Of a stretch of DNA of 61,832 nt, positions 23,298 through 47,396 are shown one piece after another. Every line of letters begins with the position of its first letter. The stretch's first letter is position 1. The notes beneath the pieces were generated by a model, which worked only from the letters and a program-made list of their open reading frames with translations, had not been told where the DNA came from and did no database searches. The stretch is from Desulfomicrobium sp. (GTDB lineage Bacteria; Desulfobacterota; Desulfovibrionia; Desulfovibrionales; Desulfomicrobiaceae). The stretch lies in contig JANJWV010000239.1 in NCBI GenBank assembly GCA_024709365.1, forward strand, positions 1 to 61,832, read 5' to 3'. The translations under genes were made by a program, and so were the position numbers.

Positions 23298-23373
23298 TGG
23301 CTGGGGCGGGAGGATTCGAACCTCCGAATGACGGAACCAAAACCCGTTGCCTTGCCAGCTTGGCGACGCCCCA
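23298..23373 (-). tRNA. tRNA-Gln (anticodon TTG), CCA encoded
   Basis: 76-nt cloverleaf TGGGGCG..ACGGG-TT-TTG-GT-TCCGT..GGAGG-TTCGAAT-CCTCC-CGCCCCA-GCCA; usual ispE-tRNAGln-prs synteny. Confidence 0.97.
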
Positions 23374-41882: not shown

Positions 41883-42993
41883 ATGTTGCAATATTCGGAA
41901 CTCAAGGCCAAGGCCGCCCAGCTCGACGAACGCTTCACCGACTTCTGGAGGCGTCTTTGACCTTCGCGGCCACAAGGAGCGCCTGGCGCAGATCGAAAAA
42001 CAGCTCTCCTCGCCCGGCGCCTGGGACAAGCCCGACCTGCTGACCCCGGTCCTGCAGGAGAAGACCCAGCTCGAAAGCCGCGTGGGTGAATGGGAAGACC
42101 TGGCCCGCGCCCGCGACAACTCCCAGGAGTGGCTGGAGATGGCCTCGGCCGAGCAGACTGAGGAAATGCTCCACGCCCTGGAGGACGCCCTGACGGAAAT
42201 GGAGTCCAAGCTCGAAGGGGCGCAGATGCGCACCCTGCTGAGCGACCCCGAGGATGTCAGCGAGGCCATCCTGGAGATACATCCCGGCGCCGGCGGCACC
42301 GAGTCCCAGGACTGGGCCGAGATGCTCCTGCGCATGTACCGCCGCTTCGCCGAGCGCACGGGCTTCAAGGTCGAACTGCTGGACCTGCTGCCCGGCGACG
42401 AGGCCGGCGTGAAGAGCGTGACCCTGCACATCCACGGTCCCTACGCCTACGGCCAGCTCAAGGGCGAAAAGGGCACCCACCGCCTGATCCGCATCTCGCC
42501 CTTCGACTCCAGCGGCCGGAGGCACACCTCCTTCGCCTCGGTGGACGTCTACCCCGACGCCGGCCAGGACATCGAGATCGAGGTCCGCGACGAGGACATC
42601 CGCGTGGACATATTCCGTTCCAGCGGCCCCGGCGGCCAGTCCGTCAACACCACGGACTCGGCCGTGCGCATCACGCACATCCCCACGGGGCTGGTGGCCC
42701 AGTGCCAGAACGAGAAGTCCCAGCACAAGAACAAGGAGGCGGCCATGAAAGTCCTCAAGGCCCGCCTCTACGAGCTGGAACTGCAGAAGATCGCGAACGA
42801 AAGGCAGGCCGAGTACGTGGCCAAGGGTGCCATCGCCTTCGGCTCCCAGATCAGGACCTACACGCTGCAGCCCTATCGGCTGGTCAAGGACCACCGCACG
42901 GGCACGGAGACGAGCAATGTCGACGCGGTGCTCGACGGCAACATCGACGCCTTCATCCACAACTACCTCCTCCACCTCCATGCCTCTGCCTGA
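41883..42993 (+). CDS. prfB: Peptide chain release factor 2, programmed +1 frameshift after codon 25
   Basis: MLQYSELK..WRRL then CTT-TGA-C; the +1 frame continues DLRGHKE..GAGGTESQDW..SPF..GPGGQSVN. Confidence 0.97.
41947..41961 (+). promoter_or_regulatory. RF2 autoregulatory frameshift cassette
   Basis: Internal SD GGAGG (41947-41951), 3-nt spacer, CTT TGA C (41955-41961). Confidence 0.95.
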
Positions 42994-43834
42994 GCTGCCC
43001 TCTGACGAGGAGCTCTTGGGCGAACTGGAGACTCTGGAGCGGGAGCTGCGGCTGCACGCCACGGGCGGGGACGTCTCGGCCCTGGTCCGTCTGATCCGCT
43101 CGGACCCGGCCTGGCCGCAGGTGCTCAGGACCAGACGGATGGACCAGTGGTTCGTGCTGCCCCTGAAAGACGGCGCCTACCCGGCGCTGGCGGAGCTCAA
43201 ACGGCACATGGAGGAACTGACGGCGCTGCAGGGCCAGGACCCGTTGACCGGGCTGGTCAACCGCCGCGGCTTCGACCAGGCCATGGCCCTGGAGGCGGAA
43301 CGCAGCGGACGGTTCAGGACGCCGCTGACGCTGTGCGTCATGGACCTCGACGATTTCAAGGCCGTCAACGACACGTACGGCCACATCTGCGGGGATACGG
43401 TGCTGAAGGCCGTCGCCTCGGTCCTGCAGGCCGAGACGCGCCTGATCGACACGGCGGCCCGCATCGGAGGCGAGGAGTTCGCCATCCTCCTGCCGGGCAC
43501 GGGCCTGCTCCGGGCCTGCAAGCTCCTGGAGCGGATTCAGGCCGCCATCGTCGAGGCCCGGATCCGCTGCGGCGACGAGGCTCTGTCCGTGACCATGTCC
43601 ATGGGCGTGGCCAGCTACCGCGGCAAGCAGATCCCGGACGCTGCCCTGCTGATGGAGGAGGCGGACCAGGCCATGTACCGCGCCAAACGGGCGGGAAAGA
43701 ACCGCATCGAGGCCGCCCCGATTCTGGACCTCGTCCTGGGCGAGGACCGCTCCCTGGTCCACCAGAACGAGAAACGCTTCCTTTTTTCCTCATTCTTCGC
43801 TCCGTCCCCGCATGCCGGGGAGGACAGGGGCTGA
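42980..43834 (+). CDS. Diguanylate cyclase (GGDEF)
   Basis: DPLTGLVNRR, DLDDFKAVNDTYGH..GD, RLID I-site, GGEEF, ADQAMYRAK..GKN; overlaps prfB by 14 nt. Confidence 0.92.
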   Translation: MPLPELPSDEELLGELETLERELRLHATGGDVSALVRLIRSDPAWPQVLRTRRMDQWFVLPLKDGAYPALAELKRHMEELTALQGQDPLTGLVNRRGFDQAMALEAERSGRFRTPLTLCVMDLDDFKAVNDTYGHICGDTVLKAVASVLQAETRLIDTAARIGGEEFAILLPGTGLLRACKLLERIQAAIVEARIRCGDEALSVTMSMGVASYRGKQIPDAALLMEEADQAMYRAKRAGKNRIEAAPILDLVLGEDRSLVHQNEKRFLFSSFFAPSPHAGEDRG

Positions 43835-43835
43835 C

Positions 43836-44642
43836 ATGACCGATTCCAACACGACTTTCAGCATTTCCGTGGCCAGCGGCAAGGGCGGCGTGGGCAAGAC
43901 CAACCTGGCCCTGAACCTGGGCTTCGCCCTGCACGAACTGGGACAGACCCTGGTCCTCCTGGACGCGGATCTGGGCCTGGCCAATCTGGACGTCCTGCTG
44001 GGCCTCTCCCCGGACAAGAACATCCAGGACCTCCTGGGCGACACGAGCGCCGAGAGCGTCGTCGTGCCCCTGGCCAAGGACGGGTTCGTCTTCCTGCCGT
44101 CGGCCTCGGGCGTGGCCGAGCTGGTCGAACTGGACGAGGACGTGCAGAGCCTGCTCCTGGGCAAGCTCGACGCCCTCTTCCGGCAGTACGACTACCTCAT
44201 CCTGGACCTCGGGGCCGGCATCAGCCCCACGGTGCTGTCCTTTGCGGCCATGCCGCAGGAGCGCATCGTGGTCATCACCCCCGAACCCACGTCCCTGACG
44301 GACAGCTACGCCCTGATCAAGGTGCTCTGCACCCAGCACCAGATCCGCAACTTCCAGATCATCGTCAACATGGCCGAGTCCGAAAAGGAGGCCAAGAACG
44401 CCTTCACCCGGCTGGCCCAGGCCTGCGAGCACTTCCTGAACCTGCCCGTCAACTTTCTGGGCATGGTCCACCGCGACCCCATGGTCACGGAGTCCGTGCG
44501 GCACCAGGTGCCACTGCTCAAATTCGCCCCCAACTGCCAGGCCGCCCGGGACATCCGCGAGATCGCCCGGAAAATCTCGGAACGCAGAAACAGGCTGAAG
44601 GATCTCATCGCCCGCAGCCCAATCCTCAAATCAAGCGTGTGA
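43836..44642 (+). CDS. MinD/FlhG (FleN) family ATPase
   Basis: SGKGGVGKT deviant Walker A, DADLGLANLD, D.GAGI, TPEPTSLTDSYALIK. Confidence 0.88.
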   Translation: MTDSNTTFSISVASGKGGVGKTNLALNLGFALHELGQTLVLLDADLGLANLDVLLGLSPDKNIQDLLGDTSAESVVVPLAKDGFVFLPSASGVAELVELDEDVQSLLLGKLDALFRQYDYLILDLGAGISPTVLSFAAMPQERIVVITPEPTSLTDSYALIKVLCTQHQIRNFQIIVNMAESEKEAKNAFTRLAQACEHFLNLPVNFLGMVHRDPMVTESVRHQVPLLKFAPNCQAARDIREIARKISERRNRLKDLIARSPILKSSV

Positions 44643-44650
44643 AGCATATC

Positions 44651-45502
44651 ATGAAACATCTCATCCTCGTTCTGACGCTCCTGATCCTGGCGGCCGTCCC
44701 ACTTTCGGCACAGGCAGGAACCGAAACCGCCCTGGTCTTCACCGCCAACACCTTCGGCGAGCACTCGCCCTGCCCCTCCTGAGGGGGCAAGTCGTACGGC
44801 GGGTTGGCCCGGCGGGCCACCTTCTTCAAGACCGTTCGCGAGAACGGCGGCGCGGTGTTCATCGGCGGCGGATACGAACTGGCAGTCCCCGGCACCGAGG
44901 GTGACCGGCATCCCGCGGCCGTGGAGCAGCTCAAGCGGGCCTACGGCATGCTGGGATACGACATCTTCCTGCTCAGCCCGGCCGATGCGGCGGTGCTGAG
45001 CGGCTCGAAGGTGCAGGCCCCGCGCGCTTGGCAGCCGCCCCTTGACGAGCCCGCCCTGGTCGAACGGAACGTGCCCGGCGGCCGGCTGGCCTTCGTCCTC
45101 TTCCCCGACTCCGGCCGGGCCGACCCGGCCATGGAGGATCGGCTGGTCGACTTTGCCCGCGAACTGCGGGCAAAGGGGAAATACAACCTCGTCATCGGCG
45201 TGAGCACCTGGGGCTCGGCGCGGGAAAACGCCTTCATCGACACGAGCGACCCCGTCTTCGACATCATCCTGGGCTCGGGCGAAGGACCCGGCTATTCGGG
45301 CCTGTACATGTGGGACAACCGGGTGCTGTGGGTGCGCGCCTTCACCAAGGGCAAGAGCGTGCACACCGTGACCATCCCCGCCCTGCCCGCCCCCGGGGAA
45401 AAGGTCGTGTGGACTCCAGAGCAGTCCGTCAGGACCCTGGCCCAACCCCTGGGCGACAACATCGCCTCGGCCCCGGACATCCAGGCCATCTTCACCCGGT
45501 AA
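44651..45502 (+). CDS. Exported UshA-like selenoprotein candidate (CxxU), 283 aa, Sec at codon 44
   Basis: ATG 44651 gives signal peptide MKHLILVLTLLILAAVPLSAQA then ..FTANTFGEHSPCPS-TGA-GGKSYGGLARRATFF, in frame with the track ORF 44804-45502; SECIS-like hairpin follows. Confidence 0.88.
44802..44821 (+). promoter_or_regulatory. Bacterial SECIS-like hairpin
   Basis: GGT-[T bulge]-GGCCC-GGC-GGGCC-ACC starting 19 nt after the TGA; G-leading loop. Confidence 0.7.
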
Positions 45503-45576
45503 CACGCCAATTTCTTGCATTTTCGCCCGATTCCCCCTAACTGGAAACCAATAATAGATTGCCCCAAGGATACGAC

Positions 45577-46416
45577 ATGTCCATTTTCCCCGGGCCCACT
45601 CAGCCCTTCTACAAGATGCAGGGCAGCGGCAACGACTTCATCGTCATCGACAACCGCGCCCGCTCCATATCCCCCGACGTCATGCCCCTCTGGGCCAAGG
45701 CCCTGTGCCCCCATGCCTTCAGCATCGGCGCCGACGGCATCATCTTTCTCGAAACGGACGACTCGGGCCTCGCCGCCACGCGCTGGCACTTCTTCAACGC
45801 CGACGGCTCCCGCGCCGAGATGTGCGGCAACGGCTCGCGCTGCGCGACCCTGCTGGCCCACCGCCTGGGCATGGCCCCGGCCGAGCACCTCATGCTCACG
45901 GACGCCGGCCCCGTCCGCGCCAGGGTTTTCGCCGAGGCCGGCGAGGTCGAGGTGCAGCTGACCCCTGCCCGGGACCTGGCCCTGAGCTTCCCGCTGCAGC
46001 TCGGCGACGAAGCCTGGACGGCACATTTCGCCAACACCGGCGTGCCGCACACGGTCATCGTCACGGACGACGTGAAGGGTCTGGACGTCAGGGGCCTGGG
46101 CGCCAAGGTGCGCTACCACGAGCGCTTCGCCCCGGCCGGGACCAACGCCAACTTCATCCAGGTCGTCGGCCCCCAGGAGCTTCTGCTGCGGACCTACGAG
46201 CGCGGCGTGGAGAACGAGACCTTCGCCTGCGGCACGGGCGCCGCGGCCTCGGTGGCCGTGGCCCACGCCCTGGGCCTGTGCGAGGCCACGGCCCGCGTGA
46301 CCACCTCGGGCGGCGAGGTTCTCGGAATCACCGTGAACGGATCGGACATTTTCCTGCGCGGCAAGGCCACCGTCGTCTACCAGGGCGAGTTCAGCCCCGC
46401 CGCCATGGGCCTCTGA
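45577..46416 (+). CDS. dapF: Diaminopimelate epimerase
   Basis: KMQGSGNDF, GADG, NADGSRAEMCGNG, TGVPH, ERGVENETFACGTG. Confidence 0.96.
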   Translation: MSIFPGPTQPFYKMQGSGNDFIVIDNRARSISPDVMPLWAKALCPHAFSIGADGIIFLETDDSGLAATRWHFFNADGSRAEMCGNGSRCATLLAHRLGMAPAEHLMLTDAGPVRARVFAEAGEVEVQLTPARDLALSFPLQLGDEAWTAHFANTGVPHTVIVTDDVKGLDVRGLGAKVRYHERFAPAGTNANFIQVVGPQELLLRTYERGVENETFACGTGAAASVAVAHALGLCEATARVTTSGGEVLGITVNGSDIFLRGKATVVYQGEFSPAAMGL

Positions 46417-46464
46417 AGCCCCGAGGCACACGCAACAACCACAGCCCAAACCCGGGAGGAAACG

Positions 46465-47343
46465 ATGCAATTCAAAGGAGCCTTCACAGCCCTGGTCACT
46501 CCGTTCTCAGGCGGCCAGATCGACGAGGAAGCCTACCGGCAGCTGATCGAATGGCAGGTGCAGAGCGGCATCAACGGCGTCGTGCCCTGCGGCACCACCG
46601 GCGAATCCGCGACCATGAGCCACGAGGAGCACAAACGCGTCATCCGCATCTGCGTGGACCAGGTCAAAGGCCGGGTGCCCGTCCTGGCCGGGGCCGGGTC
46701 CAACAACACGGCCGAGGCGGTGGAGCTGACGCAGTTCGCCAAGGACGCCGGGGCCGACGGGGCGCTCCTCATCACCCCCTACTACAACAAGCCGACCCAG
46801 GAAGGCCTGTACCAGCACTTCAAGCGCATCGCCTCAGAAGTCTCCATGCCCTTCATCGTCTACAACGTGCCCGGCCGCACCGGCGTGAACCTCCTGCCGG
46901 CCACCGTGGCCCGCCTGAACAAGGACATCAAGGACGTCATCGGCATCAAGGAGGCCACGGGCGACCTGAACCAGGTCTCCCAGGTCCTCGAATGCTGCGG
47001 CCCGGACTTCCAGGTCCTCTCGGGCGACGACTTCACGGTCCTGCCGCTGCTGTCCGTGGGCGGTTGCGGCGTCATCTCCGTGGTCTCCAACATCCTGCCG
47101 GACAAAATGAGCGACATGTGCGCGGCGTGGTTCGCAGGCGACCTGCCCACGGCGCAGAAGCTGCATTTCGAGCTGGCGCCCTTCTCGCGCATGATGTTCC
47201 TGGAGACCAACCCCATCCCGGCCAAGACCTCCCTGGCCCTCATGGGCCGCATCAAGCTCGAGCTGAGGCTGCCGCTGGTACCCATGAGCCCGGCCAACGC
47301 CGAGTGCCTGCGCGCCTTTTTGGCCGACAAGGGCCTCATCTAG
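46465..47343 (+). CDS. dapA: 4-hydroxy-tetrahydrodipicolinate synthase
   Basis: ALVTPF, GTTGES, PYYNKP, YNVPGRT, GIKEA, LSGDD, TNPIP. Confidence 0.97.
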   Translation: MQFKGAFTALVTPFSGGQIDEEAYRQLIEWQVQSGINGVVPCGTTGESATMSHEEHKRVIRICVDQVKGRVPVLAGAGSNNTAEAVELTQFAKDAGADGALLITPYYNKPTQEGLYQHFKRIASEVSMPFIVYNVPGRTGVNLLPATVARLNKDIKDVIGIKEATGDLNQVSQVLECCGPDFQVLSGDDFTVLPLLSVGGCGVISVVSNILPDKMSDMCAAWFAGDLPTAQKLHFELAPFSRMMFLETNPIPAKTSLALMGRIKLELRLPLVPMSPANAECLRAFLADKGLI

Positions 47344-47360
47344 CCCGCCTTGTTCCACGC

Positions 47361-47396
47361 AAAAAAGGCCGCCTTCCCGCGAGGGAGGGCGGCCTT
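47361..47396. terminator. Terminator between convergent dapA and pyrR
   Basis: AAGGCCGCCTTCCC-GCGA-GGGAGGGCGGCCTT, A6 on the left. Confidence 0.8.

What the first reader, a model, noticed from the sequence alone, without database searches (positions are those of the whole stretch)
44651..45502. Hidden exported selenoprotein with a CxxU motif
Seen: the track ORF at 44804 lacks a sensible N-terminus. An in-frame ATG at 44651, 8 nt after the flhG-like stop, gives a clean signal peptide (..SAQA/G) and runs to C41-P-S-TGA44, then continues GGKSYGGLARRATFF to 45502 (283 aa). Established: CxxU and CxU are typical Sec redox motifs, and UshA-like selenoproteins are known from computational surveys of deltaproteobacteria but, to my knowledge, have no demonstrated function. 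Inference: a periplasmic Sec protein that pipelines would truncate or call a pseudogene.
Basis: partly seen in the sequence, partly recalled or inferred. Interest (0 to 1): 0.85.

Follow-up and report, generated by a model that had tools for sequence, protein, structure and literature searches.

The report
Catalogued selenoprotein on dead nucleotidase fold
A gene that looks broken by a stop codon is an intact gene, kept in many related sulfate-reducing bacteria and already catalogued but untested, predicted to encode an exported selenocysteine protein whose nucleotidase-like fold lacks the usual metal-binding residues, so it likely works as a selenium-based redox enzyme in the periplasm.

Summary
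44651-45502 is one 283-codon frame with a signal-peptide-like start and a single TGA in C-P-S-U. It passes NCBIfam NF049981, UshA-like (seleno)protein family 2 (263.6 bits, cut-off 140), a family listed in a 2026 review as GenBank-annotated only. TGA is kept in 31 of 32 family genomes with a match; the other has Cys. The genome has selA, selB, selD and tRNA-Sec. A hairpin 28 nt downstream is kept in 56 of 61 Sec copies and 0 of 4 Cys copies. The predicted fold is the 5'-nucleotidase/SoxB N-terminal domain (Z 24), with 0 of 8 metal-site residues and no substrate domain, so it is not a nucleotidase. Sec is kept where Cys41 is lost, and distant relatives are fused to tetrahaem or glutaredoxin modules. 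A periplasmic selenol/thiol oxidoreductase is the most likely role (about 0.5). Second copies sit in a ccmF-TPR-metal-ATPase cassette, and this genome lacks CcmH and a clear CcmG. That raises a testable but unproven role in cytochrome c maturation or metal stress. Verdict: a real, ordinary member of a known, uncharacterised family.

The parts
44651..45502 (+). Gene for UshA-like selenoprotein family 2, 283 aa with TGA read as Sec; mature form about 28 kDa
44651..44716 (+). Predicted cleavable signal peptide, residues 1-22 (no lipobox Cys, no twin-arginine motif)
   Evidence: sequence read directly, hydropathy; similar N-termini in homologues
44771..44782 (+). C41-P-S-U44 motif; the TGA is 44780-44782. 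The model puts it in a short hairpin right after the degenerate first metal motif
44805..44819 (+). SECIS-like hairpin: 6-bp stem 44805-44810/44814-44819 and 3-nt G-first loop 28 nt after the UGA, overlapping codons L-A-R-R-A
   Evidence: consensus from PMC13188914 passages
43812..44642 (+). Context: MinD/ParA-family ATPase gene, part of the conserved corC-lnt-prfB-GGDEF-minD-like run upstream
45559..47396 (+). Context: dapF, dapA and a 14-bp terminator-like hairpin (47365-47396); likely end of the transcription unit

Best explanation
The gene is predicted to be read through its UGA as selenocysteine and exported to the periplasm, where the protein likely acts as a selenol/thiol oxidoreductase on a nucleotidase scaffold that has lost its metal-site residues. 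Shown: intact conserved frame, Sec machinery, a hairpin kept only in Sec copies, Cys homologues, 5'-nucleotidase-like predicted fold, and replacement of all eight metal-site positions. Inferred: SelB reads the hairpin and inserts Sec44, and the signal peptide is cut. Sec44 is the reactive residue, and Cys41 is a dispensable resolving partner forming a Se-S bond. A DsbD/CcdA-type membrane relay re-reduces it (the genome has three DsbD-family genes). Its substrates are oxidised or metal-damaged cysteines of envelope proteins, possibly including apocytochrome CxxCH motifs. The substrate and the electron donor are not identified.
For: Fold: 5'-nucleotidase/SoxB N-terminal domain, Z 24.3 and 24.0, rmsd 2.6-2.9 over about 240 residues, Foldseek E 2e-14, model pLDDT 93.6. 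Against two intact 5'-nucleotidases from relatives, the positions D,H,D,N,H,H,H,H read N,F,G,P,A,T,G,G in the query. 29 of 30 family-2 rows keep 0 of 8 and one keeps 1 (column counts). The Cys/Sec site is what is conserved instead: CxxC in 45 of 47. Sec is kept while Cys41 is lost in G001, G027, G028 and G029 (two separate branches) and in distant L149, which fits a reactive Sec better than a structural bridge. Distant relatives are joined to electron carriers: four CxxCH motifs in 6 of 20 loci read (Cytochrome_C554), and a glutaredoxin CxxC plus a two-Cys membrane domain in 5 of 6 long hits. Second copies sit directly after ccmF and a CcmI-like TPR gene, ahead of rhodanese and MauE genes, in 8 of 8 loci fetched for second copies (the last two genes seen where the locus reached them). 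DsbD-family genes are present in this genome.
Against: No activity data, and no paper testing the family turned up. The main copy lies in a housekeeping run that says nothing on function (32 of the 35 loci compared). The redox fusions belong to more distant relatives: the glutaredoxin fusions score 99-111 bits on family 1 and only 30-40 on family 2, and they are one clade, 84-90% identical. Their membrane domain was not named DsbD/CcdA by Pfam; that label is my reading from recalled motifs. The free glutaredoxin-membrane homologue does not co-occur with the gene (10 of 301 genomes against 182 of 301). The cassette copies are one clade, so one event. The gene is cleanly missing from its slot in 5 of 5 no-match genomes checked. 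Intact 5'-nucleotidases carry a Cys pair in the same loop.
Confidence: 0.5

Rival explanations
1. It is a periplasmic binder or reductase for soft metals and metalloids (Zn, Cd, Hg, As): the selenolate and Cys41 chelate or reduce the ion and pass it to export or detoxification systems.
For: The second-copy cassette carries two ZraP-like genes and a heavy-metal P1B ATPase immediately downstream. Among 20 distant loci, three lie directly after hgcC-arsM, one between arsC and a thioredoxin gene, and one beside a chromate transporter. C-P-x-C-G resembles a metal knuckle (recalled).
Against: 15 of those 20 loci have no metal-related neighbour among the 82 of 100 neighbouring ORFs scanned. The ars-linked copies fall in one clade. 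The cassette is a single origin. The main copy is in a housekeeping run. Loss of Cys41 in several lineages would halve a chelating pair.
Confidence: 0.2
2. It specifically fills the role of the missing CcmG/CcmH in System I* cytochrome c maturation, keeping apocytochrome CxxCH motifs reduced for CcmF and CcmI.
For: G000 has ccmE (CPSKY type) followed by a ccmF-A-B-C-D-I-like run, no CcmH match and no CcmG over the cut-off. The cassette order is ccmF, TPR, this gene. PMC3601427 (passages) says CcmG is absent or undetected in System I*.
Against: The same review reports that the Desulfovibrio operon makes holocytochrome in E. coli without CcmG or CcmH. The gene is missing from whole genera (g15 0 of 52, g10 0 of 8). 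G000 has TlpA-like thioredoxins that could do the job. The main copy is not near ccm genes.
Confidence: 0.1
3. It is a sulfur-transfer or polysulfide-handling protein in which Sec44 forms a transient selenopersulfide.
For: SoxB ties for the best fold match (Z 24.3). A rhodanese gene is in the cassette. A multihaem selenoenzyme for sulfur respiration exists (PMC13510729, abstract start and one passage seen).
Against: SoxB's tie with the nucleotidases reflects the shared domain, and its metal site is lost here too. There are no sox or sulfur-respiration neighbours at the main locus, and that paper does not mention UshA.
Confidence: 0.1
4. The Cys-Sec pair is only a structural bridge in a metal-free ligand-binding or scaffold protein, or in a residual phosphoesterase.
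For: Intact 5'-nucleotidases have two cysteines in the same loop before the GG-x-A-R helix. Cys-only copies occur in genomes that have selA (G108, G191). Residues away from the motif are also nearly invariant (E76, S185, W187, E192, W227, R229).
Against: Cys41 is lost while Sec is kept in at least two family-2 branches, which breaks a bridge. Sec and its hairpin are maintained across the order. 0 of 8 metal-site residues remain.
Confidence: 0.08
5. The TGA is a nonsense mutation or read error, and the real product is the 232-aa downstream ORF or nothing.
For: Databases mostly hold the truncated form, and the bare motif is common by chance.
Against: TGA at the same codon across genera, Cys in the exceptions, a hairpin tied to Sec copies, conserved upstream coding sequence and independent contigs with the same TGA.
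Confidence: 0.01

Closest known systems
NCBIfam NF049981 UshA_like_Sel_2, 'UshA-like (seleno)protein family 2' (listed as CxxU, 'GenBank annotated', in the table of PMC13188914)
   Same: 263.6 bits over a cut-off of 140, profile positions 2-261 of 262, CxxU motif, one Sec.
   Different: Nothing found; this is an ordinary member. No function is given for the family in the passages seen.
NCBIfam NF041198 UshA_like_PCGU (COG0737 UshA-like, CxU; PMC2398784)
   Same: Same degenerate nucleotidase-like domain with Sec just after the first metal motif, and exported.
   Different: 28.6 bits against a cut-off of 275. CxxU instead of CxU, 283 aa against a 519-position model, and no CxxCH cytochrome domain. 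Family 2 is a separate long-branch clade (100/100).
5'-nucleotidase/UshA, NadN, CD73 and SoxB (calcineurin-like metallophosphoesterase N-terminal domain)
   Same: Predicted fold, Z 22-24 over about 240 residues, 11-17% identity; GG-x-A-R helix; exported.
   Different: 0 of 8 metal-site and catalytic positions are kept, and there is no C-terminal substrate-binding domain (the match covers only residues about 30-360 of 500-565-residue chains).
CcmG/CcmH and TlpA periplasmic thiol reductases
   Same: Exported, with a two-residue CxxC-type redox motif; linked to ccmF and a TPR gene in one cassette.
   Different: Different predicted fold, uses Sec, absent from whole genera, and no activity shown.

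Membership tests
NF049981 UshA-like (seleno)protein family 2 | HMM score at or above 140 bits over the full model | tested here: met
   263.6 bits, positions 2-261 of 262; 254.8 bits from DNA
NF049981 UshA-like (seleno)protein family 2 | CxxU motif with Cys homologues | tested here: met
   C41-P-S-U44; CxxC in 45 of 47
Bacterial selenoprotein gene | selA, selB, selD and tRNA-Sec in the genome | tested here: met
   (all over cut-off)
Bacterial selenoprotein gene | SECIS: 3-9 nt loop with G first, 16-37 nt after UGA, 4-16 bp stem (PMC13188914) | tested here: met
   3-nt loop, G first, 28 nt, 6 bp; 98% paired in 61 Sec copies against 31-53% when slid, and 71% in 4 Cys copies. It is not the minimum-energy fold of the 51-nt window
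Bacterial selenoprotein gene | Selenium incorporated in the protein | not testable with these tools
   needs 75Se labelling or mass spectrometry
NF041198 UshA_like_PCGU (family 1) | HMM score at or above 275 bits; CxU motif | tested here: not met
   28.6 bits, CxxU
NF041198 UshA_like_PCGU (family 1) | C-terminal multihaem domain (seen in both members tested that passed the cut-off) | tested here: not met
   the query has one Cys besides Sec and no CxxCH
5'-nucleotidase/UshA/SoxB metallophosphoesterases | Calcineurin-like N-terminal domain fold | tested here: met
5'-nucleotidase/UshA/SoxB metallophosphoesterases | Dimetal ligands and catalytic His (DxH, GD, GNH, H, GHxH; roles recalled) | tested here: not met
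   0 of 8 kept
5'-nucleotidase/UshA/SoxB metallophosphoesterases | C-terminal substrate-binding domain | tested here: not met
   the protein ends at 283 and aligns only to the N-terminal domain
CcmG/CcmH thiol reductases | Sequence family match (thioredoxin-like CcmG or helical CcmH) | tested here: not met
   no Pfam match and only the two UshA-like NCBIfam matches; the model matches the phosphoesterase fold
CcmG/CcmH thiol reductases | Genomic linkage to ccm genes | tested here: inconclusive
   yes for the single-origin cassette, no for the main copy
CcmG/CcmH thiol reductases | Reduces apocytochrome disulfides | not testable with these tools
   needs an assay

The most novel reading that the evidence does not exclude
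A dead 5'-nucleotidase domain has been repurposed as a non-thioredoxin-fold selenol reductase of the periplasm, and in Desulfovibrionales it is the unrecognised partner that stands in for CcmG/CcmH of System I* cytochrome c maturation, duplicated with ccmF and ccmI in a metal-stress cassette to keep haem attachment running when thiols are poisoned.
Probability: 0.1. Interest if true: 0.75.

Novelty: new member of a known kind. Interest (0 to 1): 0.33.

Why it matters
As an annotation it matters little: NCBI has a model for the family, and this scan already holds 277 notes that mention UshA selenoproteins. What is useful is the functional lead. The family is in 182 of 301 sampled genomes of the order, is truncated in most protein databases, and is named after an enzyme it almost certainly is not. 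If it is a selenol oxidoreductase, it adds a metallophosphoesterase-fold pseudoenzyme to the short list of non-thioredoxin redox scaffolds. If the ccmF link holds, it would bear on the open question of what keeps apocytochromes reduced in System I*. Natural Cys variants make it easy to express and test.

Tried and rejected
Sequence search of solved structures with the single protein gave nothing significant; the profile reached 5'-nucleotidases only weakly. Pfam names neither the protein nor any of 128 aligned members convincingly. Motif plus hairpin as stand-alone evidence was rejected, with 290 chance sites. The 51-nt minimum-energy fold does not show the conserved hairpin and is unremarkable (z -1.94, 9 of 200 shuffles as good), although the 55- and 60-nt windows do form it. 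The glutaredoxin-membrane protein as obligatory donor was rejected (10 of 301). 'Cys copies occur only where selA is missing' was rejected: it fits G034 (85% complete), but G108 and G191 have selA. A homodimer-with-zinc prediction on a natural Cys homologue gave no verdict. No plasmid record matched. The back-translation scan found only one true relative. RNA-library contigs cover the gene but cannot show transcription. No promoter-like site lies near the gene. Locus-tag searches, using D. vulgaris tags recalled from memory, found only an IHF paper, seen as a listing. No language-model look-alike search was obtained for this protein. Haft and Tolstoy 2025, Haft and Gwadz 2023 and Goddard 2010 were not held and were not read, and no supplements were read; any of these could already discuss this family or its neighbourhood. 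PMC13326102 has no mention of UshA in its main text, and PMC1914089 lists other Desulfovibrio selenoproteins only.

Full report
Observation. The window has an ATG at 44651, eight bases after the stop of a MinD/ParA-family gene, and a frame to TAA at 45502 with one internal TGA at 44780-44782. Read with TGA as Sec it gives 283 aa: a signal-peptide-like start (read by eye; hydropathy peak), then C41-P-S-U44. The ordinary caller reports only 232 aa from 44804. The bare pattern is not informative in this 65% GC genome, where a loose version matches 290 sites, so the case rests on comparison.

It is a selenoprotein gene. The protein scores 263.6 bits on NCBIfam NF049981, UshA-like (seleno)protein family 2 (cut-off 140), and 28.6 on family 1 (cut-off 275). 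32 of 35 genomes of the family match; 31 carry one in-frame TGA and G034 has Cys (G002 was counted from the table, not read at codon level). A close relative is a Desulfomicrobium. In the order, 182 of 301 sampled genomes match, 180 over the cut-off, and most listed rows have one TGA (97 rows were not listed). Of 150 representatives, 47 cover the N-terminal region: 45 have CxxC, one CxxW and one neither. Most of the other 103 start downstream of the TGA, as do most of the 77 close hits. G000 has selA, selB, selD (itself with a TGA) and tRNA-Sec. Contigs of two other studies span the TGA unchanged.

SECIS. In 65 distinct copies matched by my pattern (L031 and L032 were missed by it), the string GCCCGG(C/A)GGGC is present in 56 of 61 Sec copies and 0 of 4 Cys copies. 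The same codon choice occurs in 1 of 68 background A-R-R-A/G sites of the genome. The 6-bp stem is 98% paired in Sec copies, 31-53% when slid, and 71% in Cys copies. The loop is always 28 nt from the UGA and starts with G, and G001 shows a double change that keeps a pair. This fits the consensus in PMC13188914 (passages). These copies are related, so the counts are not independent, and the hairpin is not the minimum-energy fold of the 51-nt window.

It is not a nucleotidase. The model (pLDDT 93.6, 128 sequences) matches the N-terminal domain of SoxB and 5'-nucleotidases (Z 22-24) and stops where their substrate domain begins. Against two intact 5'-nucleotidases from relatives, the eight metal-site positions D,H,D,N,H,H,H,H (roles recalled) read N,F,G,P,A,T,G,G. 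29 of 30 family-2 rows keep none, while distant relatives keep 0-4. Family 2 is one clade on a long branch (100/100). The CxxU lies in a short hairpin eight to eleven residues after the first degenerate motif; I could not measure distances.

Which residue matters. Sec is kept and Cys41 lost in G001, G027, G028 and G029, on two branches, and in distant L149. Sec is replaced by Cys in G034, where no selA was found (85% complete), in G108 and G191 (no stop; G108 read as Cys), which have selA, and in one of two tandem copies in genus g30. The position-44 chalcogen is the constant. Against a purely catalytic reading, intact nucleotidases also have a Cys pair in this loop.

Context. Of 35 loci compared (chosen to span genera, not at random), 32 place the gene in the run corC-lnt-prfB-(GGDEF)-(minD-like)-(ihfB)-gene-(dapF)-(dapA) (names). 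A terminator-like hairpin follows dapA. In 5 of 5 genomes without a match, ihfB is followed directly by dapF or dapA, so the gene is truly lost there, and whole genera lack it (g15 0 of 52). Eight second copies, all Sec, share one cassette: zraP-like, ccmF, CcmI-like TPR, this gene, heavy-metal P1B ATPase and M23 peptidase in all eight. Rhodanese and MauE genes follow in the five that extend far enough, and a divergent histidine kinase lies upstream in six. The four tested form one clade. G000 does not carry this cassette as such. Its own ccm run is of the System I* type: CPSKY CcmE, no CcmH match and no CcmG over cut-off (PMC3601427 passages). It also has three DsbD-family genes and TlpA-like proteins.

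Wider family. 162 of 401 phylum genomes have a more distant relative, mostly with TGA. Of 20 loci read, 18 have TGA and 6 carry four CxxCH motifs. Three sit after hgcC-arsM, one between arsC and a thioredoxin gene and one beside a chromate transporter; the rest have housekeeping or unnamed neighbours (82 of 100 neighbouring ORFs scanned). Five of six long database hits fuse such a domain, with a single Cys, to a glutaredoxin CxxC and a two-Cys membrane domain that I read as CcdA-like although Pfam did not name it. They are one clade closer to family 1, and the free glutaredoxin-membrane protein occurs in only 10 of 301 genomes.

Mechanism. The most likely reading (0.5) is a periplasmic selenol/thiol oxidoreductase: Sec44 attacks, Cys41 resolves, a DsbD/CcdA-type relay resets it, and envelope protein cysteines are the substrates. 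All of these steps are inferred. Rivals are metal(loid) binding or reduction (0.2), a specific CcmG/CcmH stand-in (0.1), sulfur transfer (0.1), a structural bridge (0.08) and a pseudogene (0.01).

What is known. PMC13188914 lists family 2 in a table as CxxU, GenBank annotated (passages). PMC2398784 and PMC9312934 list the CxU family (passages). Searches found no functional study. Three relevant papers were not held and no supplements were read, so print coverage is not excluded. PMC12285233 was seen in passages only and added nothing. Earlier notes of this scan had nothing by sequence or place, while 277 mention UshA selenoproteins; of the eight shown, the closest known family named is always family 1.

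Verdict. The finding is a real selenoprotein gene and a new member of a catalogued, untested family. Interest is 0.33. The boldest reading not excluded, a selenol reductase serving System I* cytochrome maturation, has probability about 0.1 and interest 0.75.

Noticed in passing
L076-L083 (for example G151:C1:294000-313999, G003:C30:1-20000): A cassette shared across genera: histidine kinase (divergent), two zraP-like genes, ccmF, CcmI-like TPR, a second Sec copy of this gene, heavy-metal P1B ATPase, M23 peptidase, rhodanese, MauE. It looks like a mobile envelope and metal-stress module.
   Followed up: partly
L046 and L075 (G194, G149; genus g30): Tandem duplicate with a Cys copy directly upstream of a Sec copy; only the Sec copy keeps the exact hairpin.
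   Followed up: partly
P0225, P0227-P0230; G000:C51:128-1366 (L107): Fusions of an UshA-like domain to glutaredoxin and a two-Cys membrane domain. G000 has the unfused glutaredoxin-membrane half next to a DsbD-like gene, with no Pfam family.
   Followed up: partly
G000:C183, L002:451-2277: A 608-aa distant paralogue with a long Pro/Ala-rich linker and a C-terminal UshA-like domain that has only 2 of 8 metal-site residues and no Cys/Sec motif.
   Followed up: partly
L066 / L084 (G007:C1:1190609): A divergent UshA-like gene with C-P-G-U beside type II secretion genes.
   Followed up: no
L142-L144, L148: Distant CPxU relatives lie directly after hgcC-arsM, or between arsC and a thioredoxin gene near a DF-family selenoprotein gene. 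No HgcA motif was found in the stretches fetched.
   Followed up: partly
window 41955-41961: prfB has the usual internal frameshift site: a short first frame ends in TGA and the gene continues in the +1 frame (programmed frameshifting recalled).
   Followed up: yes
window 44643-44650: ihfB, which lies between the minD-like gene and this gene in most of the order, is missing from this slot in the window and in the four other loci of genera g1 and g6 compared.
   Followed up: no
window 23301-23373 (-): One tRNA, the only Rfam match in the window.
   Followed up: no
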